A DNA stretch of 64,000 nt, from assembly GCA_041665005.1 (NCBI GenBank), contig JBAYJR010000005.1:16312-80311 (forward strand), read 5' to 3'. Below, piece by piece: positions 45,025 to 64,000 of the stretch (position 1 is its first letter; each line of letters starts with the position of its first letter). This stretch comes from Candidatus Buchananbacteria bacterium. GTDB taxonomy: Bacteria; Patescibacteriota; Patescibacteriia; 2-01-FULL-39-33; JBAYJR01. The position numbers and the translations under genes were made by a program. The notes below the pieces were generated by a model, which worked only from the letters and a program-made list of their open reading frames with translations, ran no database searches and was not told the DNA's origin.

Positions 45025-47694
45025 CTATTTAGAGGTGTAACTAATCTTTAATTTTTCTTCCACGGCTGCTTGAGCGGCGGCTAACCTAGCAATCGGTACG
45101 CGGTAAGGTGAGCAAGAAACATAATTCATACCCACGCGATGACAAAATTTAACGGAATCTGGGTCGCCACCGTGTTCACCACAAATGCCAATCTTTAAAT
45201 CTTTTTTAACCGACCGACCTAAATTAATACCCATTTGCACTAATTTACCAACGCCGGCTTGGTCTAAAGTTTGAAACGGATCGGCTTTTAAGATTTTCTT
45301 TTCTAAATACACCTTAATAAATTTACCAGAATCGTCACGTGAAAAGCCCATTCCCATTTGCGTTAAGTCATTAGTACCAAAGGAGAAAAAGTCGGCTTCG
45401 GCGGCAATTTCATCAGCCGTCACCGCCGCGCGCGGCACTTCAATCATCGTACCAATCTTGTAAGGCAACTTAACGCCATACTTCTTTAAAGTCTGTTCCG
45501 CAATCGTAATCACTAATTCTTTTTGATTTTTTAATTCGCTAACATTGCCAACCAAGGGAATCATAATTTCGGGCACTACTTTTATTTTGTCTTCTTTATA
45601 CAATTCACAGGCCGCGGAAATTATGGCTTCGGTTTGCATTTCGGTAATTTCGGGATAAGTAATACCTAAGCGACAACCGCGGTGCCCCAACATGGGATTA
45701 AATTCGTGCAGTTCATTGGACTTAGCCCAAATCTTTTCGGCTGGCACGCCAATTTTCTTGGATAAAATTTCTGCTTCTTCCTTGGTCTTGGGCACAAATT
45801 CATGCAACGGTGGATCTAAAAATCTAATGGTCACCGGAAAGCCCTTCATTTCTTTAAACAAACCTTTAAAATCGTTTTTTTGGAACGGTAATAACTTGGC
45901 CAAGGCTTTGCGGCGATCTTCCACTTTTTCCGCAATAATCATTTCTTGCATAAACGGTAAACGTTCTTCGGCAAAAAACATATGTTCCGTGCGACATAAG
46001 CCGATTCCTTCAGCCCCAAAGCTTTTGGCAACTTTAGCATCGCGAGGAATGTCGGCATTAGCGCGCACGCCAATCTTTTTTATTTCATTGACCCACTTCA
46101 TAAACACACCAAATTCGCCGGTCATTTGCGGTTCCACCGTGGCTACTTTACCAATAATTACTTCACCGGTAGAACCATTGATGGTTAAATAATCCCCTTC
46201 GCTTAAAGTTTGACCGTTCAAGATTAATTTTTTTGTATGTTCATTAACTTTAATTTCTTCGCAACCCGCTACGCAACATTTACCCATCCCCCGCGCTACC
46301 ACCGCCGCATGCGAAGTCATGCCTCCGCGTGCTGTCAAAATACCTTGGGCGGCATCCATACCATGAATGTCGTCTGGACAAGTTTCGGTGCGTACTAAAA
46401 TAACTTTTTCTGTTTCGCCTAATTCTACCGCCCGGTCCGAAGTAAAGACAATTTTACCCACCGCCGCACCAGGTGAAGCCGGTAAACCTTTGGCCGCCAC
46501 GCTGTATTTGGCTTTAGGGTCAATAATGGGATGTAATAATTGATTTAATTGTTCAGGCTCCACGCGCATAATCGCCTCTTGTTTGGTAATCAATTTTTCC
46601 TTAACCATATCTACCGCTAATTTCACCGCGGCTTGCGCGGTGCGCTTGCCCGTGCGAGTTTGCAACATATACAACACATCTTGTTCAATGGTAAATTCAA
46701 AATCTTGCACATCACGATAATGCTTTTCTAATTTTTTGGTAATGGTATGTAGTTGTTTAAAAGCTTTGGGCATTTCTTTGGCCAAATTAGCAATTGGTCG
46801 TGGAGTACGAATACCGGCCACCACATCTTCACCTTGAGCGTTAGTTAAATATTCACCATAAAACACATTATCACCATTAGCCGGGTTACGGGTAAAACCC
46901 ACCCCCGTGGCGCAATCTTCGCCCATATTACCAAACACCATGGCTTGCACATTAACCGCCGTGCCTAAATTATCTGCAATTTTATTTAAGCGACGATAAG
47001 TAATGGCTCGCGGATTCATCCAACTATTAAACACGGCATTACGGGCCATTTCTAATTGTTTAATTACTTCTTGCGGAAACTCTTTACCAGTCCGTTCTTT
47101 AACTAAAGTTTTATATTCTTTAATAATGCTTTGCAAATCTTCGGCGCGTAATTCGGTGTCTAATTTAATTTTTAAACTTTCTTTTTTGGCGGTTAAAATT
47201 TCTTCAAATTCTTCTTTAGCAATTTCTAACACCACATTACCAAACATTTGAATAAAACGACGATAAGCATCATAACCAAACCGTGGATTGTTGGTTTTAG
47301 CAATTAGACCTTTGACCGTTTCATCATTTAAACCTAAATTTAAAATAGTATCCATCATGCCAGGCATGGAAAATTTTGCGCCCGAACGAACAGATAGTAA
47401 TAACGGATTTTTAATCTCACCAAGCTTTTTACCAGTCGCCTTTTCTACCTTAGTTAAGGCCGCCAACATTTGACCATTTAATTCTTTGGGTAATTTTTGT
47501 TTATTAGCATCATAATAATTACAAACTTCAGTGGTGATAGTAAAACCTGGAGGCACGGGTACACCCGTGTTGGTCATTTCGGCTAAACCGGCACCCTTAC
47601 CGCCTAATAAATCTTTCATTTGTCCATTGCCTTCAGCCCGACCGTGGCCAAAAAAATAAACAAACTTACCTTTTTTGGAAGAACTTTTTTTCAT
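45025..47694 (-). CDS. ppdK: pyruvate, phosphate dikinase
   Basis: 889 aa. N-terminus KFVYFFGHG...LLGGKGAGLAEM; central phospho-His swivel (GGMTSHAAVVARGMG); C-terminal PEP/pyruvate TIM barrel (RFLDPPLHEF..GTNDLTQ). Confidence 0.9.
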   Translation of the reverse strand: MKKSSSKKGKFVYFFGHGRAEGNGQMKDLLGGKGAGLAEMTNTGVPVPPGFTITTEVCNYYDANKQKLPKELNGQMLAALTKVEKATGKKLGEIKNPLLLSVRSGAKFSMPGMMDTILNLGLNDETVKGLIAKTNNPRFGYDAYRRFIQMFGNVVLEIAKEEFEEILTAKKESLKIKLDTELRAEDLQSIIKEYKTLVKERTGKEFPQEVIKQLEMARNAVFNSWMNPRAITYRRLNKIADNLGTAVNVQAMVFGNMGEDCATGVGFTRNPANGDNVFYGEYLTNAQGEDVVAGIRTPRPIANLAKEMPKAFKQLHTITKKLEKHYRDVQDFEFTIEQDVLYMLQTRTGKRTAQAAVKLAVDMVKEKLITKQEAIMRVEPEQLNQLLHPIIDPKAKYSVAAKGLPASPGAAVGKIVFTSDRAVELGETEKVILVRTETCPDDIHGMDAAQGILTARGGMTSHAAVVARGMGKCCVAGCEEIKVNEHTKKLILNGQTLSEGDYLTINGSTGEVIIGKVATVEPQMTGEFGVFMKWVNEIKKIGVRANADIPRDAKVAKSFGAEGIGLCRTEHMFFAEERLPFMQEMIIAEKVEDRRKALAKLLPFQKNDFKGLFKEMKGFPVTIRFLDPPLHEFVPKTKEEAEILSKKIGVPAEKIWAKSNELHEFNPMLGHRGCRLGITYPEITEMQTEAIISAACELYKEDKIKVVPEIMIPLVGNVSELKNQKELVITIAEQTLKKYGVKLPYKIGTMIEVPRAAVTADEIAAEADFFSFGTNDLTQMGMGFSRDDSGKFIKVYLEKKILKADPFQTLDQAGVGKLVQMGINLGRSVKKDLKIGICGEHGGDPDSVKFCHRVGMNYVSCSPYRVPIARLAAAQAAVEEKLKISYTSK

Positions 47695-47732
47695 AAGTTA
47701 TTTTATTAATATTTATTTTAATTATTTAGCAA

Positions 47733-53448: not shown

Positions 53449-54036
53449 ATGAACACAACTTGGCAGTTTGAAGAACAGGAAAAAAGAGAAAAAGCCGAGG
53501 CGGAATTACTGGCTGAACAAACCATCGCCAAAGAGCAAATAACTAAACTTTGGGAAAAATTTTTAGAGTTGAACAATCAACTAATTCCTAGCTTAAAATT
53601 AACTATTCAAAAAAGAGATTTTGGTTTTATTCTTGGTTATGACGATCCTGGCTATCATAGTTATAGAGATTTAATAGCTATTACTATCTATACGGACGAA
53701 TTACTGAGTAAGCCCGGTAACGAATCATGTATGCAAATATGCGGCGATTACCCGATACGCTACCGGGACAACCTAAAAATGTTTGAAATACAGAACAATG
53801 ACTATCACTCTATGTTTTTCAAACTCGATGATCAAGTCTTAATTGAAGAATTTTTTCGTTTAATCATCTGCAATCCTAGAGGAATAAGTGATCTTATCAA
53901 AAGTAAATGGCAAGAAGCAAAAAGTATTGAAGCGCCTGAAAGCCCTGGTCTTACGCTATATCTTCCGCAAGAACCGGTTAGCCTGTGGGAATCATTCAAA
54001 AATATGATGAATGATTTTTTTAATTTTTTTAAATAA
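53449..54036 (+). CDS. array-B gene 2: hypothetical protein (195 aa), distant paralog of genes 3 and 4
   Basis: Shared motifs LWEKFLELNNQL and YHSMFFKLDDQVLIEEFFRLIICN. Confidence 0.5.
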   Translation: MNTTWQFEEQEKREKAEAELLAEQTIAKEQITKLWEKFLELNNQLIPSLKLTIQKRDFGFILGYDDPGYHSYRDLIAITIYTDELLSKPGNESCMQICGDYPIRYRDNLKMFEIQNNDYHSMFFKLDDQVLIEEFFRLIICNPRGISDLIKSKWQEAKSIEAPESPGLTLYLPQEPVSLWESFKNMMNDFFNFFK

Positions 54037-54060
54037 AATTATCCGTCTAAAGAACCCAAA

Positions 54061-54094
54061 CCCTAATCAATAAGATTAGGGTTTTTTTATTTAA
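54061..54094 (+). terminator. array-B terminator copy 2
   Basis: Identical hairpin followed by TTTTTTTATTT. Confidence 0.55.
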
Positions 54095-54135
54095 ATCAAC
54101 TCCCCGCCTTTTTGTAGTGTGGCTAAATTAATCGG

Positions 54136-54164
54136 TTGACAGTTACCAAAAATAATGCTATGGT
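54136..54164 (+). promoter_or_regulatory. array-B promoter 3 (TTGACA-17-TATGGT)
   Basis: GGAGGG at 54184, ATG at 54196. Confidence 0.4.
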
Positions 54165-54195
54165 GTAAATAATTAAAACCAATGGAGGGACAAAA

Positions 54196-54711
54196 ATGAA
54201 CCAAAGATATAACGACGCCACCAGGTATAAACTTTACAGAATTGAGATACTTTGGAAAAAATTTTTACAACTAAACGAAAAAATGGAACCGGCAAAAAAA
54301 TTGAAGTGCATTAACGAACCTTGTTTCTGGCTAAACGAATTTTCGCCGGAACAACTAATACGAGGAAAGCCGGATTTAAAAAAATTAGATTTTGTTTTAA
54401 AACTAATAAAGCCCAGAAACAACGATGCCGAACCGGCAATCCAGCTAGAAGTGGGGTTTATTAATTACTCAATCTCGAGAAACTGCTACCACTTTGAGAT
54501 TCCCGATCATCCAACGATTTCGCATTATTTTTTCCTGATTGAAAATACCGAGTTTGTTGCCGGATTATTTAATTGTATTGTGGCTGGTGATTTTATAAAC
54601 TTACCAGCACCACCAGTTTTACCAGCCAAGGCCAAGCCAGACAGCCTTTTAACCAAATTTAAATTTTGGCTAAAGGATTATAAGGACTGGCTCAAAAGCA
54701 TACTTTGCTAA
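54196..54711 (+). CDS. array-B gene 3: hypothetical protein (171 aa), paralog of genes 2 and 4
   Basis: ILWKKFLQLNEKM and ISHYFFLIENTEFVAGLFNCIVAG. Confidence 0.5.
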   Translation: MNQRYNDATRYKLYRIEILWKKFLQLNEKMEPAKKLKCINEPCFWLNEFSPEQLIRGKPDLKKLDFVLKLIKPRNNDAEPAIQLEVGFINYSISRNCYHFEIPDHPTISHYFFLIENTEFVAGLFNCIVAGDFINLPAPPVLPAKAKPDSLLTKFKFWLKDYKDWLKSILC

Positions 54712-54726
54712 TTATGCAAACCAAAA

Positions 54727-54755
54727 CCCTAATCAATAAGATTAGGGTTTTTATT
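54727..54755 (+). terminator. array-B terminator copy 3
   Basis: Identical hairpin followed by TTTTT. Confidence 0.55.
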
Positions 54756-54770
54756 ACATCTAAGATTAGA

Positions 54771-54799
54771 TTGACATTCTTGCCCTAAGTTGTTAAAAT
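54771..54799 (+). promoter_or_regulatory. array-B promoter 4 (TTGACA-17-TAAAAT)
   Basis: GAGGAGG at 54817, ATG at 54831. Confidence 0.4.
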
Positions 54800-54830
54800 C
54801 TTGATAATTTACAATTGAGGAGGAAAAACG

Positions 54831-55370
54831 ATGGAAATAAGTGCTAAGAGTATTCAAAAACAAAAAGAAAAGGAAGAAATTATTAAGGCCAAACAGAAAG
54901 CCATAAAAGAGGCTATTTTGTGGCTGTGGTCCAGGATTCCGCATTTTTGTGAGCAACTCGACAACTACAAACTGGATGGGGTTTGTCCACCAGGCTATAT
55001 TCAATGTTACATTTGTCGTCAACGATTTGACGTACCTGACTATGCTCTATGGCTGAATATAAGAAATGATACGGGTGGAATATATTATTGTATTGAAATT
55101 GGTGACCGCATTATGCATTTACAAGGATGTATCAAATACGATCCACGAAAAGAAAGGTTTGAGCTCTATTGCTATTATCACCCCAAACATAAAGTACATT
55201 ATTTTAATTTTCAAGATAATGCCTTTATTAAAACCTTAATTGAGGGAATTGCCTTAAACAAAAAAGTTGACGATCTCTATCATGATTTGGATGCGCTAGC
55301 CCCACCCTTGAAAATTTTTGTTTTTTTTAAAAAAATAAAAAAACTTTTTACCAAAAACCCTAATCAATAA
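54831..55370 (+). CDS. array-B gene 4: Cys/His-rich hypothetical protein (179 aa), paralog of genes 2 and 3
   Basis: VHYFNFQDNAFIKTLIEGIALN and several C/H pairs (CPPGYIQCYICRQ...HLQGC...CYYHPKH). The stop codon lies in the loop of the terminator hairpin. Confidence 0.5.
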   Translation: MEISAKSIQKQKEKEEIIKAKQKAIKEAILWLWSRIPHFCEQLDNYKLDGVCPPGYIQCYICRQRFDVPDYALWLNIRNDTGGIYYCIEIGDRIMHLQGCIKYDPRKERFELYCYYHPKHKVHYFNFQDNAFIKTLIEGIALNKKVDDLYHDLDALAPPLKIFVFFKKIKKLFTKNPNQ

Positions 55371-55388
55371 GATTAGGGTTTTTTATTC
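55358..55388. terminator. array-B terminator copy 4 (bidirectional with the GerMN gene)
   Basis: Identical hairpin followed by TTTTTTATTC. Confidence 0.55.
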
Positions 55389-55406: not shown

Positions 55407-56408
55407 TTACGGCTGTAAAATATCTTCGGAACGGCCGTTGATGGAAATAACAACAGATTTAATAGTCGGAAATTGTAATAAAGTTTGAGTAATTTGCCCA
55501 CGAATATTCGCCACGCGACAAGAACCACCAACTTGAAAATCTAACTGATCACTAAAATCTGCCTTAGCTACGCCTTGATCGGTAATTTCTATTTTTTGTA
55601 ACTTAGTTGCACTAGGAATATTAGTAAAATACCCTGCCGTCTTTTCCTCGGCGGTAATCCCCTTTAGTAATTCCGTAATCGCCGCTTTAGCGGTGGCAAC
55701 AGTATAAGGAATAACGCGTTCGACGGCAAAAACTTTTTGACAATCCAGCATTTCCGAATCCTTGATAGTATTAGCAAAAAATATTTTGACGGTTAAATCT
55801 TGTGGAACAATGTTTGGTACAATCGTAACCGGCAGACTAAAAGTTTGATCATTTTGTGGTAAGCCAGAAGGATTGTCTTTACTAAAGACTAACAGGCCAG
55901 TAGTAGTAGTGGTAACTTTAAATTCTATGGCGCCCTTAAACCGGACATAGCCAGTTTGCATCCAATCATCTATCGCCTGCACATAGCTTTGAGCCAGCAC
56001 TTGATTATTTTGACCAATTAGTTTAACCGGAAAAGAACCTTCAAAAAACCACGAGCCCAAGGCCCGGCCAGTTAAGTTTAGCGGACTGCTAATTGAATCG
56101 TTGGCTTTTAGGCCGTCTAAAATTACCGGCAAATCTTCTACAAAAGTTTTATCTTCAAAACGACACTGGCGCGGATAAGTTTCCATCACCGGCAAACCTA
56201 GCGCCGCACATTCGGTAAAATTTGTTACCGCTTTGACCTCGCCACAACCAGTTAGGGGTGGCGTAGCATTTGGCTTACCATGTTTAACCCAGGCACCATT
56301 TTGACACAACCAAGTATCTTCATCACCGCTAAGTAGCCGTAAACCGATGATGATTAAAATTAAAATAATTAAAATTGTAACCAAACCAATAAACCAAGAT
56401 TTTTTCAT
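55407..56408 (-). CDS. membrane-anchored GerMN-domain protein
   Basis: N-terminal TM helix (FIGLVTILIILILIIIGL) and a C-terminal GerMN-like region ending in VISINGRSEDILQP. Confidence 0.5.
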   Translation of the reverse strand: MKKSWFIGLVTILIILILIIIGLRLLSGDEDTWLCQNGAWVKHGKPNATPPLTGCGEVKAVTNFTECAALGLPVMETYPRQCRFEDKTFVEDLPVILDGLKANDSISSPLNLTGRALGSWFFEGSFPVKLIGQNNQVLAQSYVQAIDDWMQTGYVRFKGAIEFKVTTTTTGLLVFSKDNPSGLPQNDQTFSLPVTIVPNIVPQDLTVKIFFANTIKDSEMLDCQKVFAVERVIPYTVATAKAAITELLKGITAEEKTAGYFTNIPSATKLQKIEITDQGVAKADFSDQLDFQVGGSCRVANIRGQITQTLLQFPTIKSVVISINGRSEDILQP

Positions 56409-56417
56409 AAAAAAATA

Positions 56418-57245
56418 TTAATCTAACTTAATTTTGTTATCCCCATACAATAAATAATCTTTATTATCTTCGGTTAATAGTTTGATCGGCTGTGTTTCAG
56501 TAATCATTTGTCCGCCCAATTTATCGTAACCTTTCACATCCACTTTTCCTTTATTACCCAAATAGACAGCCAGAACATCTAAATTCCAACTGTGGCCAAC
56601 GGCGCCAATAATTACTTCTCTATCTGGTAAAAATTTATGGACAAAGTCACTCAATCTTTTGATACCTTGTAATTGTTTTTCCGCTATTTCCTGAGGCTTA
56701 GGGCCCACTAAATTGTCTAGCTGGCCTTGATTGTCTAGCCAGTCACGCAAGGCTGCTTGTTCGTCGTTATTATTCTTTTCTAATAATTTAGCGGCATAAG
56801 CCGTCAAATTACCTTCCTTAGTAAACCAAGTATTATTATTAAGAGCAAATTCTTTTATAAACATTGGAAAATCAATCATTACTTTTTTATCGGCATTATC
56901 CTGAATTTGTTTAACTAACCAATCTACTTTCTTGTTTTGCCCCTCCTTGGTGTCAAAGTCATTTCTATCAAAAACCATCACATCAATAATCCCCTTTTGC
57001 TCCACTAAATCCTTAAGTTCATCGCCATAAACTTCGGCTGTTGATTTGGTTCTAATTTGGTTAGAAACAGCACCCAGCAACATTACCGTGCCGGGTTTTT
57101 CTTGTTGCAAATCAGCCAACAACTCCGTGGCTCGCTCCTTAGCTAATTCCACACCCTTTTCAGAAATTCCCTGATATTTTTGGCTGGGTAAATCCTCGCC
57201 TTTAGGTTTAATGGAGTGTCGCGTCGCAAAAAACTTTTCTGGCAT
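56418..57245 (-). CDS. histidine-phosphatase-superfamily (PGAM-like) protein, divergent
   Basis: N-terminal ATRHS (RHG-like catalytic His) and C-terminal IIGAVGHSWNLDVLAVYL (the second His motif of branch-1 His phosphatases). Confidence 0.4.
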   Translation of the reverse strand: MPEKFFATRHSIKPKGEDLPSQKYQGISEKGVELAKERATELLADLQQEKPGTVMLLGAVSNQIRTKSTAEVYGDELKDLVEQKGIIDVMVFDRNDFDTKEGQNKKVDWLVKQIQDNADKKVMIDFPMFIKEFALNNNTWFTKEGNLTAYAAKLLEKNNNDEQAALRDWLDNQGQLDNLVGPKPQEIAEKQLQGIKRLSDFVHKFLPDREVIIGAVGHSWNLDVLAVYLGNKGKVDVKGYDKLGGQMITETQPIKLLTEDNKDYLLYGDNKIKLD

Positions 57246-57271
57246 AAATATTATTTTAAAATCAAATTTGC

Positions 57272-57871
57272 TTAATAATTATTTTTCATCTCTTCTAATT
57301 TTTTGCGGGCGATCTCTTTAAATTGTGGATCAAAAAATGTTTCTAACCCCTTTTCAAGCATTGACCACATTTTATTTTTATCCGGGAAGGATTTTTCCAT
57401 TTTTCTTAACCGTTCTAAATTATACCGATCCATGCAATCAATATCGTGAAATATCCTCTTATTTTGAGTATTGTATACTCTTGACACATCAGTCCCCTCA
57501 AGCTGATCGGAATCATGCATACTAATAATATCAATAATTTCTTCAATCTTATTTTTATCATATTCAATTGACTCTAGTAGGTCCTTGGCTATTTTTGCTC
57601 CAGCCAGCATATGCACCAACTTTCCGTTAGCTACTCGTTCTCCACCAGTAATATATTTAAAATGTTCCGGCAAAATAGCAGAATGGCCAATATCATGCAT
57701 AATTGCCACTGGTGTTAAAATATCTAAATCAATATCTTTATTACCACAATTGATTACGAATTCTGCCACTTCCACAGCATGGGTGTCATCACCTGGCCGA
57801 CCCTGCTGTAAAATTGGCAAACATTTATCCCATAATTTTTGGTATTTTTCTGGAAGATTTTTTATTTCCAT
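57272..57871 (-). CDS. HD-domain metal-dependent phosphohydrolase
   Basis: H...HD motif (VAIMHDIGHS) plus downstream His/Asp ligands; 199 aa. Confidence 0.65.
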   Translation of the reverse strand: MEIKNLPEKYQKLWDKCLPILQQGRPGDDTHAVEVAEFVINCGNKDIDLDILTPVAIMHDIGHSAILPEHFKYITGGERVANGKLVHMLAGAKIAKDLLESIEYDKNKIEEIIDIISMHDSDQLEGTDVSRVYNTQNKRIFHDIDCMDRYNLERLRKMEKSFPDKNKMWSMLEKGLETFFDPQFKEIARKKLEEMKNNY

Positions 57872-57881
57872 ATTTTTATAA

Positions 57882-60800
57882 TTATTTATTAATAATTCTA
57901 ACTATCCCCTTGCCGCCATCTACTTCTACTAGATCCCCATCATGCAAAACTTTAGTGGCAATTTTAGTCCCAATCACACAAGGAATGCCCAATTCGCGGG
58001 AAATAATTGCCGCATGAGAAGTTATTCCTCCCTCATCCGTAATAACAGCGACCGCTTTTTTCATTAGAGGAACAAACTCCGGCCGAGTCATACCCGTTAC
58101 CAATATTTCACCAGTTTTAAAATTATCAAATTCCATCTTTTTTAGAATAATTTTAATTTTACCTCGGGCTTGCCCAGCCGAGGCTCCCTCGCCTTTAATT
58201 ATATCCTCATCCTTATCTGGATCTGCTGTAGCATTTTGAGCCAAAAGTCTTTGGTCTAAAACCTTAAGCTCCTTTGGTGATTCACCAATTTTTTCTTCAT
58301 ATTCATCATGACCAAAATAAATTACCGATACCTCTTCCGCCCGGGCCATAATTTGAGATCTGTGATCTAAAATATACTGTTTGCCTTTCAAAACCTCGGG
58401 GATAAAAGAAAGCGTAACTAGCGCTTGATCAATTCCCCACCGTCGATAAAGATCCTTAGTAATATCAAAAATTAACGCATCACCCTTATTAATAGCTACC
58501 TTCCGATCATCTCTAAGAAAACCAGACCAATCAATAAATTCCAGGATTTGACGTTCCAATTTATTTAAATTGCGTGCTTGTTTGATCTTTATTTTTTTAT
58601 TCTCCAACATCACCTTTTTGCTAGCCGCTAATTTAGTGGAGGCGGCCTTAATATCAATTGACTTGATAGTGGTTTTTATTTCATCCAGCGATGGAACATG
58701 GGTATAGTTGGTATAAATATATTGCAATTTACTAAGATCGCCCTGATTTTTAACAGTAGCAATAATCTCCTCGTTGTTATGCTGTTCAAATGATAAAAAA
58801 TCTAAAATCTGCGAGGCTGCCCAAATTTTATCGAGATCAACTCTTAATTTTTTTTGTTTCAAAGTCTCACTAATAATTCGCTGATCTAAAGTGTCTAAAA
58901 ATAGAGTTTGGGCCACCAATTCTTTTAGACAGCCGTAGACGTTTTTAAGTTCAAAAAGTAAACCATCTTCAGTGATAAATTTTTTGGCAAAATACGAATC
59001 ATAAGACTTATTAATTGCCTGATTAAGTAGCTGATAGCTCCTCATGGCCTTTTTAATAGTAAATTTACCCTTCAAAAACTGCGAAAAAACTATCTTAGGA
59101 ACACCATTGTATTTAGTAAAACTTACATAAGCTCTAACAAAGGCTCCTTTTTTATGACAAAAATAGGGATAAATATCTTCACTCAACTTATTATTACTAT
59201 CATAATAATTAAACCAATCCAAAACCACCAACAATGGCAAAAAATCTGCCTCAAAGGTCATCAACTGCTCGTGGCCCTTAAGAGCTAAAAACTTTTGTAC
59301 CAACGAATTAGCCTTGTTATTTTCTTCCTTGCCCTGTTTAGTTTCTAAAATTTTTACTATCCCCTTATTAGCGTCTACTTCCACCAAATCACCATCCTGC
59401 AAAACTTGAGTGGCAATTTTAGTGCCGATAACGCAAGGTTTTTTCATTTCTCTAGCGACAATCGCCGCGTGACAAGTAATCCCGCCCTCATCTGTCACAA
59501 AAGCCGCCGCTTTTTTCATCGCCGGTAGATATTCCGGTCTAGTCATCGGGGAAACCAAAACATCTCCGCTCTCAATTTTAACTAAATCTTTGACAGTAAA
59601 AACAATTTTTGCTTTTCCCTTTATACTGCCTCGATAAGCGATAGTACCAGACACCTCTCCGTTTTTGTTGCTTACCACCGTAGCTGTCAACTGAATATCA
59701 TGTTCAACAAAAAAATTCTTAAACTTCTGACCAGCAAAAACTTGATCGCGATAATAAATATAGCCCAAAGCTCGCTCTTTTAATTGTTTAATAATTTTTT
59801 GATCAACTTTCTGTTTAAAAACTTCTTTTGGCAACAAAAATTTTACCTGATCACCTAGTTTTGAAAAAAGTCTTTTTAGATTAACAATAAACAACTGGTC
59901 TCTTTTGGAAGAATATTTCTCAGTGGCTTCACGCGCCGCTAAGGCTGCCTTACGCAACGATGCGGGTATACTTGTTAATCCCGGTATTACCCATACATAA
60001 GCAATGCCCTCATAAAACCGCAAAAACAATTCATACAAATCTTTTAATTCCTTAATATTTTTTACATACCTCTCTTCATTTAAATAGGGCAGAATATTTT
60101 TTAAGGCGAAATTAAAATCCCTGATAATTTTTTCTACAAATTTTTTATCTTGCGCTTTTTTAGCAATTGCGGCAAACATCCCTTTAATCTCGGCTGGTTC
60201 ATGATAAGTTTCTACCAATTCTTGGGATAAAAATAATTCATTCTCCATCTGGCAACCAAATTTTTGATTAGTTAGTTTTAAAATTTCGCTATAAGCCGCA
60301 ATATGAAACAATGAATATTCACGGCTATGTTCTTTTACTAGAAGCAACTTTTTGTTTTCCTTCTTGCCCTGTTTAATTTCTAATATTTTAACTATTCCCT
60401 GATTAGCATCTACTTCTACCAAATCATTATCTTTTAAAATACTAGTGACAAATTTAGTGCCTACAATACAAGGAATATTAAATTCTCTAGCTACAATAGC
60501 AGCGTGGCTCATCAAACCACCCTCGTCAGTAATAATGGCAGCCGCCTTTCTAATAGCCGGTAATAATTCTGGGCCGGTCGTATCAGAAACTAAAATGTCT
60601 CCTCGCTCCATTTTGCCCAAATATTTTTTAGGATCAAGAGAAAGAGGAATAATTTTAACTCGTCCCTGAGCCTTACCTCGACAAGCCACTACGCCCTTAA
60701 CCTCTGTTTCTGTATAATTACTCTGGAGTAAATTTATTTTTTCTTTAGCCTCTTTTCCGGAAACTATTTTAATACCATTTTCGTAGGTAATATACGAGTA

Positions 60801-62444
60801 TTCATTTCTCGCTGAAACATCGGGAATATCTTTTTCCTTAGACAAACATTTTTTAACTTCTAGCAAGGTCATGGACAATATATCATTTCGGCCAGTCCTT
60901 CTTATTAATTGCAAAAAAACGTTATTAATCAAAGACTCTTCACCCATCAAAGTTTCATTAATAACCTTTCTTAACTCAAATTTCAAATGCTGCATATTAA
61001 TCATATAGTCAGCCAGCCTCCTAATATGCGGAGGGTATTTTTTTAGGCTACCTTTCTTAGCTAAAACTTTTTGCAAGTCCTCTCCTAAAAAAGTTTTTAA
61101 TTCCTGCTCGATTTTTATAAAATAGGTATATTCAGTTATCCTGTAATCTTTTACAAATCTCTCGCCGACTGCAAATAATTTATCCAAAAATAAAATAAAT
61201 TTAGCATCAGATAAAATTCCTAAATTTATTTTGGCAAGCTGTCTAAATTCCCTACCCTCACCTAAAGATCGTTTTTTAAAATTTTCAAAAAAACCTTTCT
61301 GGCTCGCATAAATATAACCAAGTTCTGCTAATTCTTGTTGCCGATTTTCTGAAAGATAAAATATCCATTTACTATCAACTATCGTGACCAAGGGGCCTAA
61401 TTCTCGATAAGCCAAAAAAAAGAAATCTGTCATTAAAACATTGTACTCGGCAAATTTAAAAATTGGCTGATACTGGTTTGCTTCTACCACGGGCTTTTTG
61501 GTCTGTAGTGTAGTAATCGGCCGGCTTTGGACAATATAAAACTTTCCTTTTTCAAAAGCCCATTCAATATCACAAGGGAAGCCATAATGCTTTTCAATTT
61601 GGATAATAATATCGGAAAGCTTAAGAATTTGTTGATTAGTTAGGGTTTGTTTTTTACCTTCGCCTGACGAAATATCACGCCACTCATTGCCGCCCCCATT
61701 AATCCTAAATAAGCCTCTTTCTTGGTGGCTAACATTAATATCAATAATTTTACGGGGCTGCTTTTCTAAGACATAACTATCTGGCGTGATTTGACCGGAC
61801 ACTATCGCCTCACCTAGGCCTAAGCCAGCCTCAATGATCATTTGGTTATAATCTTGAGTAACTGGATGCACCGAAAAAGCAATACCCGATATTTCTGACT
61901 CTACCATTTTTTGTATTACTACAGCTACGGAAATTTTTTGGCCATGCAAGCCCTTTTCAAAACGATAAAAAATCGCCCGCGGGGTAAATAGAGAGGCCCA
62001 ACAACGCTTAACGTTTTCTAAAAGTTTTTTTTCAGTGGTATTAAGAAAACTATCCAGCTGACCTGCCCAAGCGGCGCTAGCCGAATCTTCGGCGGTTGCA
62101 CTGGATCGAACTGCTACATACTTACTGTTCAGCTTTTTAAATTCTTGCATAACCAGCCGCTCAATCGATGGAGGCATCTTAGCCAACAAAATCAAAGCTT
62201 GAATTTTTTCCGAAGCCGCCTCCACTTCGCCAACTTCTTGGTGGTTAACCTTATCCAAAATAGACTCCAATTCTACCTGGAGATGTGTTTGTTTGATAAA
62301 TTCTTCAAAAGCCTGAGCTAAAATTACAAAACCAGGAGGCACCGGAATACCGGCTTGAGTCATTTCACCCAAGGAAGCGCCTTTACCACCGGCAATCGCC
62401 GCGTTATTACGATTTAGTCTTTCAAATTTTTTAATAAAATCCAT
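57882..62444 (-). CDS. giant PEP-synthase/PPDK-family phosphotransferase: N-terminal ATP-binding (PPDK_N) domain followed by three X-domain + phosphohistidine 'swivel' domain modules
   Basis: aa 1-315 match the PPDK_N ATP-grasp region (AIAGGKGASLGEM...VQSRPIT). Three PEP-utilizer His domains: ITDEGGLMSHAAIVAREF (H647, codon 60504-60506), VTDEGGITCHAAIVAREM (H992, 59469-59471) and ITDEGGITSHAAIISREL (H1477, 58014-58016). Each is followed by CV(I)GTK...DGDLVEVD...GIV. Confidence 0.75.
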   Translation of the reverse strand: MDFIKKFERLNRNNAAIAGGKGASLGEMTQAGIPVPPGFVILAQAFEEFIKQTHLQVELESILDKVNHQEVGEVEAASEKIQALILLAKMPPSIERLVMQEFKKLNSKYVAVRSSATAEDSASAAWAGQLDSFLNTTEKKLLENVKRCWASLFTPRAIFYRFEKGLHGQKISVAVVIQKMVESEISGIAFSVHPVTQDYNQMIIEAGLGLGEAIVSGQITPDSYVLEKQPRKIIDINVSHQERGLFRINGGGNEWRDISSGEGKKQTLTNQQILKLSDIIIQIEKHYGFPCDIEWAFEKGKFYIVQSRPITTLQTKKPVVEANQYQPIFKFAEYNVLMTDFFFLAYRELGPLVTIVDSKWIFYLSENRQQELAELGYIYASQKGFFENFKKRSLGEGREFRQLAKINLGILSDAKFILFLDKLFAVGERFVKDYRITEYTYFIKIEQELKTFLGEDLQKVLAKKGSLKKYPPHIRRLADYMINMQHLKFELRKVINETLMGEESLINNVFLQLIRRTGRNDILSMTLLEVKKCLSKEKDIPDVSARNEYSYITYENGIKIVSGKEAKEKINLLQSNYTETEVKGVVACRGKAQGRVKIIPLSLDPKKYLGKMERGDILVSDTTGPELLPAIRKAAAIITDEGGLMSHAAIVAREFNIPCIVGTKFVTSILKDNDLVEVDANQGIVKILEIKQGKKENKKLLLVKEHSREYSLFHIAAYSEILKLTNQKFGCQMENELFLSQELVETYHEPAEIKGMFAAIAKKAQDKKFVEKIIRDFNFALKNILPYLNEERYVKNIKELKDLYELFLRFYEGIAYVWVIPGLTSIPASLRKAALAAREATEKYSSKRDQLFIVNLKRLFSKLGDQVKFLLPKEVFKQKVDQKIIKQLKERALGYIYYRDQVFAGQKFKNFFVEHDIQLTATVVSNKNGEVSGTIAYRGSIKGKAKIVFTVKDLVKIESGDVLVSPMTRPEYLPAMKKAAAFVTDEGGITCHAAIVAREMKKPCVIGTKIATQVLQDGDLVEVDANKGIVKILETKQGKEENNKANSLVQKFLALKGHEQLMTFEADFLPLLVVLDWFNYYDSNNKLSEDIYPYFCHKKGAFVRAYVSFTKYNGVPKIVFSQFLKGKFTIKKAMRSYQLLNQAINKSYDSYFAKKFITEDGLLFELKNVYGCLKELVAQTLFLDTLDQRIISETLKQKKLRVDLDKIWAASQILDFLSFEQHNNEEIIATVKNQGDLSKLQYIYTNYTHVPSLDEIKTTIKSIDIKAASTKLAASKKVMLENKKIKIKQARNLNKLERQILEFIDWSGFLRDDRKVAINKGDALIFDITKDLYRRWGIDQALVTLSFIPEVLKGKQYILDHRSQIMARAEEVSVIYFGHDEYEEKIGESPKELKVLDQRLLAQNATADPDKDEDIIKGEGASAGQARGKIKIILKKMEFDNFKTGEILVTGMTRPEFVPLMKKAVAVITDEGGITSHAAIISRELGIPCVIGTKIATKVLHDGDLVEVDGGKGIVRIINK

Positions 62445-62460
62445 AGTATATTTTTTTATA

Positions 62461-62880
62461 TTATATTGCGACTAACACCGCGCCGATAGTTAAAATTATA
62501 ATGCCAAAAACTTTTAGCCAGGTTAATTTTTCGGCTAGAAATAAAGCGGCAAAAATTAAAACAAACACCACACTTAAACGATCAAGGGCTGCTACACCCG
62601 AAGCTGGGCCTTTTTGTAGAGCATAAAAATAAAACAACCAAGACAGCGCTCCGGCAACACCAGACAAAATAATAAATAGCCAGGCCTTACTATGGATACT
62701 ATTAAATAATTCCCATTTACCAACCACTAAAGAAGTTAAAGTTAAAAATAGTGCCATAATAATTACTCGGACCGTGGTGGCTAAAGTGGAATCAACACTG
62801 CTAACACCAATTTTACCAAAAATAGCCACTAAAGCGGCAAAAATTGCGGAAAACAAAGCGTAAATAATCCATTGGGGCAT
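62461..62880 (-). CDS. small 4-TM EamA-like (single-domain DMT/SMR-like) transporter
   Basis: 139 aa, four TM helices, EamA-like. Confidence 0.5.
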   Translation of the reverse strand: MPQWIIYALFSAIFAALVAIFGKIGVSSVDSTLATTVRVIIMALFLTLTSLVVGKWELFNSIHSKAWLFIILSGVAGALSWLFYFYALQKGPASGVAALDRLSVVFVLIFAALFLAEKLTWLKVFGIIILTIGAVLVAI

Positions 62881-62949
62881 ACGAATAGTTTAAAATTGAA
62901 AATGCAAAGTTAAAAATTAACACAAAAGGCAAAATAAAACCATAAACTA

Positions 62950-63507
62950 TTACTGATACTTATTAGCTAACTCCACCGTGGCAAAAATTAAAGTTTTTAA
63001 GCTCTCTAAATTTTTAGCTTCTACAAAACTACCATCTGAATTAAAGGCTTTTTGACCAAAGGCCAGATGTACTTGTGGTTGGGAAACAAATTTAGCATTT
63101 AAACAAGCCAGGATTTGTCGTAAATGAGGTTGCATCCGCACGGTGCCAAATGAACCAGCGCTGGCGCCGAAAAAAGCAACTACTTTATTATTCCAAGCGT
63201 TGGTTTGGCGCGAAGTCCAATCAATTAAATTTTTTAAACCACCAGGAAGAGAATGATTATATTCCGGTGAAGCGATTAAAACCAAATCACTAGCCACAAT
63301 TTGGTCATAAATTTTTTGCACCGCCTCTGGCACTCCAACCGCTTCAATATCTTCGTCAAAAATTGGTAGCTGCAAATCTTTAGGTTTAATTTCTGTTACT
63401 TCAGCTCCAGTTTCTGCTACAATTTTTTCCGCAATTTTTAAGGCTAAATAGTTAGTTGATTTTTCGCGCAAACTACCACAAATTGCTAAAACTTTTAAAT
63501 TAGCCAT
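62950..63507 (-). CDS. NAD(P)H-dependent FMN reductase (flavodoxin-like)
   Basis: MANLKVLAICGSLREKSTN N-terminal motif of the NADPH-dependent FMN reductase family; 185 aa. Confidence 0.7.
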   Translation of the reverse strand: MANLKVLAICGSLREKSTNYLALKIAEKIVAETGAEVTEIKPKDLQLPIFDEDIEAVGVPEAVQKIYDQIVASDLVLIASPEYNHSLPGGLKNLIDWTSRQTNAWNNKVVAFFGASAGSFGTVRMQPHLRQILACLNAKFVSQPQVHLAFGQKAFNSDGSFVEAKNLESLKTLIFATVELANKYQ

Positions 63508-63508
63508 A

Positions 63509-64000
63509 TCACTTTACAATTAATTTACCTTTCATGCTAGTCTGTCCAGCACCACAGTAGACAGCGCAAAAAAACGGAAACTCCCCAACTTTATTGGCGG
63601 TAAACTCAACCACCACTGGCACGTTTGGTTCTAAGGCTTTATTAATATTATAATCCGGCAAGTAAAAACTGTGCTTAACATCAACACTGGTTACGGTAAT
63701 TTTTACTTGATCACCACGATTAACCGCAATCACCGCTGGTTCAAAAGCAAATCGGCGGGCATTAACCGTAAAAACTCTTAGCTGTGGTGTAGTGCTGGCC
63801 AAGGAGTCGTTGGGTTGATTGGCCAATTTTACTTCGGTGGCCGTAAACAACACTGCTACTACTTTATCATTTTCCCTAACCGGCAAATCATCAGCGGCTA
63901 AAAAATAACCGTCCTTGTTATCTTGACGTAAAATGGCTAAATATTGAGCATTGGGTGTTAGTTCGGCGGTGACAATTTCTACATTTTGACTTTTACCAGT
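63509..64000 (-). CDS. cupredoxin-domain (CuA/COX2-like) protein; N-terminus runs off the window end
   Basis: C-terminal FFCAVYCGAGQTSMKG follows the C-x3-C-G-x2-H-x2-M CuA pattern but has Gln in place of the second His. The ORF is open upstream to 64000; the track start at 63886 is a TTG. Confidence 0.45.
   Translation of the reverse strand, partial: TGKSQNVEIVTAELTPNAQYLAILRQDNKDGYFLAADDLPVRENDKVVAVLFTATEVKLANQPNDSLASTTPQLRVFTVNARRFAFEPAVIAVNRGDQVKITVTSVDVKHSFYLPDYNINKALEPNVPVVVEFTANKVGEFPFFCAVYCGAGQTSMKGKLIVK

What the first reader, a model, noticed from the sequence alone, without database searches (positions are those of the whole stretch)
57882..62444. 1520-aa PEP-synthase-family protein with one ATP-binding head and three tandem phosphohistidine swivel domains
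Canonical members of this family (PEP synthase, PPDK, rifampin phosphotransferase) carry exactly one ATP-grasp PPDK_N domain and one GGxTSHAAI phospho-His domain. Here the N-terminal 315 aa are a clear PPDK_N domain. Three complete His domains follow (catalytic His at aa 647, 992 and 1477; the motifs are GGLMSHAAI, GGITCHAAI and GGITSHAAI), each preceded by a ~250-380-aa domain of unknown function. Module boundaries repeat: ILEIKQGKKENKK after His-domain 1 and ILETKQGKEENNK after His-domain 2. His domains 2 and 3 are ~65% identical, so this is an old internal triplication and not an assembly artefact. The architecture suggests either an intramolecular His-to-His phosphorelay or three different substrate-binding 'heads' fed by one ATP-binding domain (compare RPH, where a substrate-binding domain sits between the ATP and His domains). 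An HD phosphohydrolase, a His-phosphatase-like protein and a GerMN membrane protein follow in the same tight operon (55407-57871), which is consistent with a phosphotransfer or dephosphorylation circuit.
Basis: seen in the sequence. Interest (0 to 1): 0.85.

Follow-up and report, generated by a model that had tools for sequence, protein, structure and literature searches.

The report
One-head, three-cassette small-molecule dikinase
This gene from an ultra-small Patescibacteria (candidate phyla radiation, CPR) bacterium fuses one ATP-binding head to three different "substrate domain + phospho-histidine carrier" cassettes. This is an undescribed multi-cassette version of the rifampin-phosphotransferase type of kinase, it is widespread in CPR bacteria and DPANN archaea, and its substrates are unknown.

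Summary
ORF 57882-62444 (-) encodes 1520 aa with one PPDK_N ATP-grasp domain and three complete swivel domains (His647, His992, His1477). Each swivel follows a 250-390-aa "X" domain that has no Pfam match.

It is not a one-off and not an in-situ triplication. Of the 120 closest relatives, all from Patescibacteria or DPANN where named, 118 have one head plus 2-5 swivels. The X domains fall into recurring types; this protein reads M-A-C. The types occur in any order. They also occur as free X+His genes, the commonest form of type C, and in single-module N-X-His proteins. Swivels co-evolve with their own X domain (79% of nearest neighbours), not with the other swivels of the same protein (2%).

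Rifampin phosphotransferase (RPH) is the closest solved structure for X by two methods, but the match is weak. X3 carries an invariant R-D-x-x-K at the spacing of the RPH phosphate site R666/E667/K670.

Best reading: a multi-substrate RPH/HpeHI-type dikinase. One head charges three swivels, and each swivel delivers phosphate to its own X site. A His-to-His relay is disfavoured.

An uncharacterised 275-aa protein family with invariant R-H...R...H residues abuts dikinase parts in 4 of 4 other genomes checked. An HD protein also recurs.

Verdict: new variant of a known kind; substrates unknown.

The parts
57882..62444 (-). Whole gene, 1520 aa: one head plus three X+His cassettes. The protein ends at the last swivel domain.
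   Evidence: In 116 of 120 relatives the protein likewise ends within 50 residues of the last swivel.
61470..62444 (-). ATP-grasp head (PPDK_N), aa 1-325
   Evidence: Pfam PF01326 covers aa 17-324, E 6e-97. The best PDB sequence matches are PEP synthase 8a8e/9dae and RPH 5fbs over aa 3-340. The head is 60-74% identical to the heads of most of the closest relatives.
60666..61469 (-). X1, aa 326-593: a rare cassette type 'M', distantly related to type D
   Evidence: Only two BLAST relatives among 375 X segments. hhalign against type D gives probability 99.2% over 243 columns. No Pfam match.
60369..60665 (-). Swivel 1, aa 594-692; catalytic His647 (codon 60504-60506), motif GGLMSHAAI
   Evidence: Its nearest relative is the swivel of the other type M cassette, P0034_H2, at 68% identity.
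59619..60368 (-). X2, aa 693-942: cassette type A, the short ~250-aa form. Family-invariant residues are R708, R838, E874 and R891.
59334..59618 (-). Swivel 2, aa 943-1037; catalytic His992 (codon 59469-59471), motif GGITCHAAI
   Evidence: Its nearest relatives are swivels of type A and F cassettes in other proteins, at 70-77% identity.
58164..59333 (-). X3, aa 1038-1427: cassette type C, the long ~380-aa form
58500..58514 (-). R1311-D-D-R-K1315, the 'RDxRK' motif of X3: the inferred phosphate-transfer site
   Evidence: The motif R-[DE]-x-x-[KR] is present in 47 of 47 type C domains, 151-183 residues before the catalytic His; here the distance is 166, against 159 in RPH. RPH uses R666/E667/K670 (PMC4844700). 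A profile alignment to RPH residues 683-867 places the motif within one helical turn of R666.
57885..58163 (-). Swivel 3, aa 1428-1520; catalytic His1477 (codon 58014-58016), motif GGITSHAAI
   Evidence: Its six nearest relatives are all swivels of type C cassettes in other proteins, at 67-75% identity.
57272..57871 (-). HD-domain phosphohydrolase, 199 aa, 10 nt downstream of the giant gene
   Evidence: Pfam HD, E 2e-6. An orthologue (E 5e-47) lies at locus L015, next to a free cassette and between two giant dikinase genes.
56418..57245 (-). 275-aa protein of a conserved, unannotated CPR/DPANN family with invariant R9-H10, R65 and H218; a probable divergent histidine-phosphatase-like enzyme
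   Evidence: 131 homologues, none with a Pfam domain. Invariant columns come from alignment A4. The family gene abuts dikinase components in L019, L020, L021 and L022. Pfam, PDB profile and hhalign tests are negative or not significant.
55407..56408 (-). Membrane-anchored Gmad2/Germane (GerMN) protein, the last gene of the operon. Probably not part of the system.
   Evidence: Pfam hits. No homologue at any related locus.
55353..55383 (.). Bidirectional terminator-like hairpin (13-bp stem) that closes the minus-strand operon

Best explanation
The gene encodes a multi-cassette small-molecule dikinase of the RPH/HpeHI type.

Proposed mechanism (every catalytic step is inferred from characterised homologues; none was shown here):
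1. The single N-terminal ATP-grasp head takes the beta-phosphate of ATP and releases AMP and Pi.
2. It loads that phosphate onto the catalytic His of each of the three swivel domains, independently.
3. Each swivel returns to its own upstream X domain. That domain is a diverged counterpart of the rifampin-binding domain of RPH, and it has its own Arg-based phosphate site.
4. There the phosphate is passed to that cassette's acceptor substrate.

Because X1, X2 and X3 belong to three different cassette types (M, A, C), the enzyme should phosphorylate up to three different acceptors, which are unknown and presumably hydroxyl-bearing small molecules.

The X+His cassette is the evolutionary and functional unit. 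In CPR bacteria and DPANN archaea it exists free, fused singly to a head, or fused in chains of 2-5. This gene is a fusion of three such cassettes to a head.

The co-transcribed HD hydrolase and the 275-aa R-H...R...H protein most likely act downstream. They may dephosphorylate or further process the phospho-products, or reset the phospho-His.
For: Shown here:
- One PPDK_N and three PEP-utilizers domains, and no PEP-utilizers_C.
- The catalytic His and the flanking GG..[CS]H-AAI..RE positions are kept in 376 of 376 swivels of 120 relatives, so no copy is decayed.
- The X segments cluster into recurring types (A, B, C, D and others) that occur at any position. All types are distantly homologous and share two aligned Arg columns.
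- Swivels co-evolve with their X type: 295 of 373 nearest neighbours, against 17% expected by chance. They do not co-evolve with sister swivels in the same protein: 7 of 373.
- The same type C domain occurs mostly as a head-less free cassette: 111 of 145 representatives, with 13 as single-module N-X-His proteins. Free cassettes lie next to giant genes in 5 of about 10 loci, and a stand-alone head exists.
- RPH-like NCBIfam models and the RPH-Lm sequence align into the C-terminal ~100-200 residues of type C X domains.
- The R-D-x-x-K motif is invariant in type C, at the RPH spacing.

From the literature:
- The RPH mechanism and its R666/E667/K670 site, and the rapid divergence of the central domain across a 'family of small-molecule dikinases' (PMC4844700).
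- Trans-acting head plus cassette enzymes (HpeHI, CreHI, PpsAB), whose phospho-products are later dephosphorylated (PMC12167813).

Context: the window also encodes a complete canonical PPDK, so the giant protein is not the organism's pyruvate/PEP enzyme.
Against: - An X profile finds no PDB chain by sequence.
- The exact R-[DE]-x-x-K motif is confined to type C. X1 and X2 keep only the aligned Arg residues.
- The correspondence to RPH R666 is extrapolated to within about 4 residues. It is not a residue-level alignment.
- No substrate is known, and no pocket or His-to-Arg distance could be measured, because model coordinates are not returned.
- How swivel 3, more than 1000 residues from the head, reaches the single ATP site is unexplained.
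- A kinase and phosphatases in one operon would be a futile cycle unless there are intervening steps.
- The neighbourhood statistics rest on about 14 loci.
Confidence: 0.6

Rival explanations
1. Intramolecular phosphorelay: phosphate passes from ATP to His647, then His992, then His1477 along the chain. The X domains act as spacers or docking scaffolds, and one final acceptor is served.
For: There are three intact catalytic His residues in one chain with a single ATP site. Multistep His relays exist in other systems (the PTS and His-Asp phosphorelays; general knowledge).
Against: - Each swivel co-evolves with its own X type, not with its neighbours in the chain.
- Cassette order and number are almost free: nearly every architecture string is unique.
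- The same X types function with a single swivel or as free cassettes.
- All X types keep their own conserved Arg sites.
- No swivel shows relaxed conservation.
Confidence: 0.07
2. PTS-like protein phosphorelay: the cassettes phosphorylate proteins, not small molecules. The target could be the catalytic His of the co-conserved 275-aa R-H...R...H protein, which would then pass the phosphate on or act as a primed mutase or phosphotransferase.
For: - The 275-aa family abuts a head, a free cassette or an N-X-His gene in 4 of 4 other genomes, and it lies in the window operon.
- Its invariant R-H, R and H residues are the set that forms a phospho-His intermediate in histidine phosphatases and mutases (general knowledge).
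- The RPH paper notes that subdomains of the central domain resemble EIIA and HPr.
Against: - There is no statistical support that the 275-aa protein has the histidine-phosphatase fold.
- One partner family cannot explain eight or more divergent X types.
- The characterised relatives RPH, HpeHI and PpsAB are described as acting on small molecules.
Confidence: 0.12
3. It is an ordinary PEP synthase or PPDK (central carbon metabolism) that has merely acquired extra swivel domains.
For: The NCBIfam PEP synthase model PRK06464 scores 675 bits against a cut-off of 598. The head is most similar to bona fide PEP synthases.
Against: - There is no PEP/pyruvate-binding PEP-utilizers_C domain.
- TIGR01418 scores below its cut-off: 631 against 740.
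- The PRK06464 score is the sum of one head match and three swivel matches.
- A complete canonical PPDK is encoded at 45028-47697.
Confidence: 0.02
4. Assembly chimera or collapsed repeat of separate dikinase genes, or a recent pseudo-fusion with no function.
For: The contig comes from a metagenome-assembled genome. In relatives, free cassettes lie directly after giant genes, sometimes with overlapping stop and start codons, so fusion and fission are only one mutation apart.
Against: - The internal DNA repeats are at most 73% identical.
- The reading frame is uninterrupted over 4.5 kb.
- Multi-swivel relatives (one head plus 2-5 swivels) make up 118 of the 120 closest proteins, which come from independent assemblies and sources.
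- All swivels are under purifying selection.
Confidence: 0.02

Closest known systems
Rifampin phosphotransferase RPH (e.g. RPH-Lm; PDB 5HV1, 5FBS; Stogios et al. 2016, PMC4844700)
   Same: - The same domain order: ATP-grasp head, a helical substrate domain, then the swivel His domain.
- The head aligns to RPH over aa 3-340.
- RPH is the closest solved structure to X3 by two methods.
- The C-terminal part of X aligns to RPH residues 683-766.
- X3 has R-D-x-x-K where RPH has R666-E667-x-x-K670, at similar spacing to the catalytic His.
   Different: - Three X+His cassettes per chain instead of one.
- The NCBIfam RPH models score far below their cut-offs: 456 against 999, and 336 against 1700.
- Nothing suggests that rifamycin is a substrate.
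Two-component small-molecule dikinases: HpeHI, CreHI and phenylphosphate synthase PpsAB (Dexter et al. 2025, PMC12167813)
   Same: - A separate head and a separate substrate-domain-plus-swivel component work in trans. Relatives of the window protein have stand-alone heads and many free cassettes.
- In that pathway phosphorylation activates the substrate and a dephosphorylation step follows, which fits the phosphatase-type neighbours here.
   Different: - Here the head and three cassettes are fused in one chain.
- The X domains do not match the HpeH/PpsA-like NCBIfam models (PRK08296) outside the swivel.
- The hosts are CPR/DPANN symbionts, not aromatic-compound degraders.
PEP synthase and pyruvate phosphate dikinase
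   Same: A homologous ATP-grasp head and swivel domain, and the GGxT[SC]HAAI motif.
   Different: The PEP/pyruvate-binding TIM-barrel domain is absent. The swivel follows an X domain instead of preceding the barrel. There are three swivels. The real PPDK of this genome is at 45028-47697.
Prodigiosin ligases PigC, RedH and HapC
   Same: The same head, central domain and swivel architecture. NCBIfam reports partial hits.
   Different: Scores are far below the cut-offs (434-459 bits against 1300-1350). These enzymes have a single cassette, and there is no pigment-pathway context here.

Membership tests
PEP synthase / PPDK (pyruvate, water or phosphate dikinase) | N-terminal ATP-grasp nucleotide-binding domain (PF01326) | tested here: met
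   aa 17-324, E 6e-97.
PEP synthase / PPDK (pyruvate, water or phosphate dikinase) | C-terminal PEP/pyruvate-binding TIM-barrel domain (PF02896) | tested here: not met
   No PF02896 hit in the 1520-aa protein. The domain is present in the window's canonical PPDK.
PEP synthase / PPDK (pyruvate, water or phosphate dikinase) | Passes the curated equivalog models | tested here: inconclusive
   PRK06464 scores 675 against a cut-off of 598 (a pass), but that score sums one head match and three swivel matches. TIGR01418 scores 631 against 740 (a fail).
Rifamycin-inactivating phosphotransferase (RPH) | Passes the curated RPH models (NF041857, NF000283) | tested here: not met
   456 bits against 999, and 336 bits against 1700.
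Rifamycin-inactivating phosphotransferase (RPH) | Three-subdomain rifampin-binding domain between the head and the swivel | tested here: inconclusive
Rifamycin-inactivating phosphotransferase (RPH) | Phosphate-site residues Arg666, Glu667 and Lys670 (block 9) and a Gln in block 1 | tested here: inconclusive
   X3 has R1311-D-x-x-K1315 at equivalent spacing, and the motif is present in 47 of 47 type C domains. X1 and X2 keep only the aligned Arg. The Gln was not assessed. The mapping to R666 is extrapolated.
Rifamycin-inactivating phosphotransferase (RPH) | Rifampin-contacting residues and activity on rifamycins | not testable with these tools
   Needs a residue-level structural superposition and an enzyme assay.
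Small-molecule dikinase superfamily (RPH, HpeHI, PpsAB, PigC) | ATP-grasp head plus a non-TIM-barrel acceptor domain, followed by a swivel domain with the catalytic His | tested here: met
   The architecture is N-(X-His)x3, and all three catalytic His residues are intact.
Small-molecule dikinase superfamily (RPH, HpeHI, PpsAB, PigC) | ATP is converted to AMP + Pi, with transfer of the beta-phosphate to an acceptor through phospho-His | not testable with these tools
   Biochemical assay required.
Two-component dikinase subfamily (HpeHI-like) | Head and cassette on separate polypeptides | tested here: not met
   They are fused in the window. Split forms exist among relatives: a stand-alone 317-aa head, and free cassettes in 111 of 145 type C representatives.
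PTS Enzyme I | Swivel His domain plus a C-terminal PEP-binding domain | tested here: not met
   Only the swivels match (TIGR01417: 117 bits against 342). There is no PEP-utilizers_C domain.
Histidine phosphatase superfamily, branch 1 (tested for the 275-aa neighbour) | Catalytic Arg-His ('RHG'), a second Arg and a second His | tested here: met
   R9 is nearly invariant, and H10, R65 and H218 are invariant, in 29 family members. The motifs align collinearly with those of the confirmed His_Phos_1 neighbours.
Histidine phosphatase superfamily, branch 1 (tested for the 275-aa neighbour) | Significant match to PF00300 or to a solved family member | tested here: not met
   No Pfam hit at E<=10. A profile search of PDB sequences finds nothing. 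hhalign probabilities are 9% and 4%.

The most novel reading that the evidence does not exclude
CPR bacteria and DPANN archaea share a modular phosphotransfer platform that has not been described. In it, interchangeable X+His cassettes (at least eight types, free or fused, nine in one locus) are charged by a shared ATP-grasp head. A dedicated new R-H...R...H protein family takes part as a phosphoryl acceptor or a reset enzyme. The system would then be a branched, PTS-like phosphorelay or a multi-substrate scavenging and detoxification hub central to the symbiotic lifestyle. It would be more than a set of ordinary kinases.
Probability: 0.12. Interest if true: 0.85.

Novelty: new variant of a known kind. 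Interest (0 to 1): 0.6.

Why it matters
Swivel-domain dikinases are textbook examples of one carrier domain shuttling between two active sites. A chain with one ATP site and three to five carrier and acceptor pairs raises two questions: how a single head serves several swivels, and whether the branches compete or are regulated.

The family is large and appears restricted to CPR bacteria and DPANN archaea. These organisms have minimal metabolism and very many genes of unknown function. Cassette shuffling and copy-number variation point to a fast-evolving substrate repertoire, for example scavenged metabolites or host-derived toxins.

Identifying the substrates would annotate hundreds of large 'hypothetical' genes, and it would assign a role to a conserved 275-aa family with no annotation.

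On the practical side, automatic pipelines can misname these proteins as PEP synthase or rifampin phosphotransferase. That inflates estimates of gluconeogenic capacity and of antibiotic resistance in CPR genomes.

Tried and rejected
- Scan of genome contigs with the whole protein: the patterns came from non-conserved peptides, and the one locus returned was irrelevant.
- Scan of metagenome contigs with close type C sequences: only 7 loci, of which 2 had useful flanks.
- afdb50 fold library: unavailable.
- Pfam at E<=10 on the three X domains: nothing.
- X3 profile against PDB sequences: nothing.
- 275-aa family profile against PDB sequences: nothing. BLAST and hhalign against confirmed His_Phos_1 neighbours: not significant.
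- PADLOC on the four operon proteins: no hit, so a known defence system is not indicated.
- Cluster look-up of ten cassettes: no names or taxonomy.
- Five literature searches found no description of multi-swivel dikinases.

Rejected ideas:
- In-situ triplication.
- Assembly collapse.
- A universal R-[DE]-x-x-K motif across X types: it is specific to type C.
- GerMN as part of the system: it does not recur.

Full report
**1.
The minus-strand ORF 57882..62444 is 1520 aa. Pfam finds one PPDK_N domain (aa 17-324, E 6e-97) and three PEP-utilizers stretches. The catalytic motifs GGLMSHAAI, GGITCHAAI and GGITSHAAI place the phospho-carrier His at residues 647, 992 and 1477. With HMM-defined borders the layout is:
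- N: aa 1-325
- X1: 326-593, then H1: 594-692
- X2: 693-942, then H2: 943-1037
- X3: 1038-1427, then H3: 1428-1520

The protein ends at the last swivel. The X segments have no Pfam match even at E<=10. The swivels are 49-66% identical to each other. The longest internal DNA repeat is 279 nt at 73% identity, so an assembly collapse is excluded. The exact protein is on record from an 82.5-kb Candidatus Buchananbacteria contig, named only 'PEP/pyruvate-binding domain-containing protein'.

**2. It belongs to a large family.**
A search of 5.8 billion proteins gave 7707 hits. The best 120 are 930-2650 aa, and every named source is Patescibacteria/CPR or a DPANN archaeon such as Woesearchaeota or Nanoarchaeota. 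Domain counts in these 120:

| Architecture | Proteins |
|---|---|
| one head + 1 swivel | 1 |
| one head + 2 swivels | 23 |
| one head + 3 swivels | 65 |
| one head + 4 swivels | 22 |
| one head + 5 swivels | 8 |
| no head + 5 swivels | 1 |

All 376 swivel domains keep the catalytic His and the flanking GG..[CS]H-AAI..RE positions. No copy is a decayed remnant.

**3. The repeat unit is an X+His cassette, and the cassettes are shuffled.**
The 375 X segments cluster into recurring types:
- A: about 248 aa, 101 members
- B: about 392 aa, 95 members
- C: about 377 aa, 47 members
- D: about 261 aa, 47 members
- E to H and rarer types

The window protein reads M-A-C. M is a rare relative of type D (hhalign probability 99.2%). 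Types occur at any position, and almost every architecture string is unique, for example AC, AAD, BAA and CDEAN. Half of the proteins repeat a type.

Profile-profile comparison shows that all types are distantly homologous. The short types align with each other over their full length, and so do the long types. All share the last ~95 residues, which contain two aligned conserved Arg columns.

For 295 of 373 swivels, the most similar swivel is the one attached to the same X type in a different protein; chance expectation is 17%. For only 7 is it a swivel of the same protein. X and its swivel therefore evolve as one unit. The window gene is a fusion of three pre-existing cassette lineages. It is not an in-situ triplication.

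**4. The same cassettes exist free and in single-module enzymes.**
A type C profile searched against 1.84 billion representative proteins finds 485 hits at E<=1e-3. The 145 newly retrieved representatives split as follows:

| Form | Representatives |
|---|---|
| head-less free cassette (median 482 aa) | 111 |
| single-module N-X-His (about 788 aa) | 13 |
| two or three cassettes, with or without a head | 15 |
| no swivel detected | 6 |

At the genome level, giant genes are often followed by free cassette genes. There is one after P0004 and one after P0026, and at least five lie after the archaeal P0002. The cassette directly after each of these three giant genes overlaps its stop codon. A 901-kb Patescibacteria contig has a single locus with two giant genes, two free cassettes, an HD protein and a His_Phos_1 protein. 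A stand-alone 317-aa head also exists.

**5. What the X domain is.**
- AlphaFold models are confident: X3 has pLDDT 91 and pTM 0.89; X2+H2 has pLDDT 88.5.
- Foldseek's top four hits are all RPH-Lm entries, but they are not significant (E about 0.1, TM 0.17-0.30).
- At sequence level, RPH-like NCBIfam models extend 130-200 residues upstream of the swivel in a free type C cassette.
- A type C profile aligns to RPH-Lm residues 683-867 (E 3e-22) and puts the second conserved Arg on RPH R728/R730.
- Type C carries an invariant R-D-x-R-K (47 of 47 domains; R1311 to K1315 here), 166 residues before His1477. RPH uses R666/E667/K670, 159 residues before His825, to hold the transferred phosphate. Gap-free extrapolation of the alignment puts the motif within one helical turn of R666.

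I conclude that X is a strongly diverged counterpart of the RPH central acceptor domain. The homology is probable for the C-terminal half. It is weak and inferred for the rest.

**6. What the protein is not.**
- It lacks the PEP/pyruvate-binding barrel, and the window encodes a complete canonical PPDK at 45028-47697.
- It exceeds the NCBIfam PRK06464 PEP synthase cut-off (675 against 598) only because one head match and three swivel matches are summed. It fails TIGR01418 and both RPH models.
- PADLOC finds nothing.

**7. Neighbours.**
The giant gene, the HD gene, the 275-aa gene and the GerMN gene are separated by 10, 26 and 9 nt. They are closed by a bidirectional terminator at 55353-55383.
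- The HD protein has an orthologue (E 5e-47) in the two-giant locus L015.
- The 275-aa protein defines a family of 131 proteins in Patescibacteria and Nanoarchaeota, with no Pfam domain and with R9 nearly invariant and H10, R65 and H218 invariant.
- In four of four look-ups, a member of that family directly abuts a dikinase component: an 810-aa N-X-His gene (L019), a stand-alone head (L020), a free cassette (L021), and a position between an N-X-His gene and a free cassette (L022). This is strong evidence of a functional link.
- Other loci carry recognisable His_Phos_1 genes instead.
- The R-H, R, H set matches the catalytic residues of histidine phosphatases, a comparison I make from memory. 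Pfam, a PDB profile search and hhalign give no significant support, so the fold assignment remains a motif-level inference.
- GerMN does not recur.

**8. Mechanism.**
I found no description of multi-swivel dikinases in the held literature. The nearest precedents are:
- RPH, a single chain with one cassette (PMC4844700).
- The two-component dikinases HpeHI, CreHI and PpsAB, in which a separate head charges a separate substrate-domain-plus-swivel protein without forming a stable complex, and whose phospho-products are later dephosphorylated (PMC12167813).

On this basis the best-supported model is parallel charging. One head loads each swivel, and each swivel serves its own X site. Up to three different acceptors are phosphorylated. 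Fusion into one chain raises the local concentration of head and cassettes. The catalytic steps are inferred, not shown. A serial His-to-His relay is disfavoured by sections 3 and 4. A protein-directed relay, perhaps through the 275-aa protein, is not excluded.

**9. Verdict.**
This is a new variant of a known kind of enzyme. It is widespread in CPR and DPANN, it comes with a new conserved partner family, and its substrates are unknown.

Noticed in passing
window 45028-47697 (-): An 890-aa canonical pyruvate phosphate dikinase with all three domains (PPDK_N, PEP-utilizers, PEP-utilizers_C). This genome therefore has an ordinary PPDK besides the giant protein.
   Followed up: yes
window 53449-55370 (+): Three consecutive ORFs of 195, 171 and 179 aa with no Pfam match, convergent on the dikinase operon. 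The first two are weakly similar (phmmer E about 1e-3), so they may be a small paralogous array.
   Followed up: partly
window 62461-63886 (-): A half-size EamA transporter (139 aa), an NADPH-dependent FMN reductase and a cupredoxin-like protein lie directly upstream on the same strand, with gaps of 16, 69 and 1 nt. They may be co-transcribed with the giant gene. No recurrence at related loci was seen.
   Followed up: partly
window 57882-62444 (-), NCBIfam result: The PEP synthase equivalog PRK06464 is exceeded (675 bits against 598) only because one head match and three swivel matches are summed. Automatic annotation could call such proteins PEP synthase, and resistance-gene surveys of CPR genomes count rph-like hits (PMC8651080).
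   Followed up: partly
L003 6001-19053: An archaeal contig (it carries archaeal-type L10/P0 and L12 ribosomal protein genes) with a 2350-aa five-swivel protein, followed by at least five free X+His cassette genes and a nucleotidyltransferase (NTP_transf_2). That makes ten or more cassettes in one locus.
   Followed up: partly
L015 1-16331: One locus on a 901-kb Patescibacteria contig has two giant dikinases (1619 and 2300 aa), two free cassettes, an HD protein, a His_Phos_1 protein and an rve-family integrase between them. The integrase hints that the cassettes may be mobile.
   Followed up: partly
L020 9001-10904: A stand-alone 317-aa PPDK_N head directly follows a homologue of the 275-aa family, and no cassette is adjacent. 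The system therefore also exists fully split.
   Followed up: partly
P0092 (1832 aa): A relative with five swivel domains and no detectable ATP-grasp head. It also carries an extra Pfam domain (PF23287).
   Followed up: no
L001 12092-12841 (-) and L017 14806-15519 (-): Homologous unannotated ORFs of 237-249 aa lie convergent to the free cassette that follows the giant gene in two unrelated loci. This may be another accessory family.
   Followed up: no
X type F (about 485 aa; e.g. P0025_X2 and P0091_X1): Type F contains a full type A-like region (E 4e-42) plus about 250 further residues. The A-like region is in the N-terminal half by profile comparison, but in the C-terminal half in the two BLAST alignments. 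It may be two fused X domains after the loss of a swivel.
   Followed up: no
L013 9056-11425: A 790-aa single-module protein (head, a type C X domain, one swivel). It shows that the X type found in the window's third cassette also works in an RPH-like single-cassette enzyme.
   Followed up: partly
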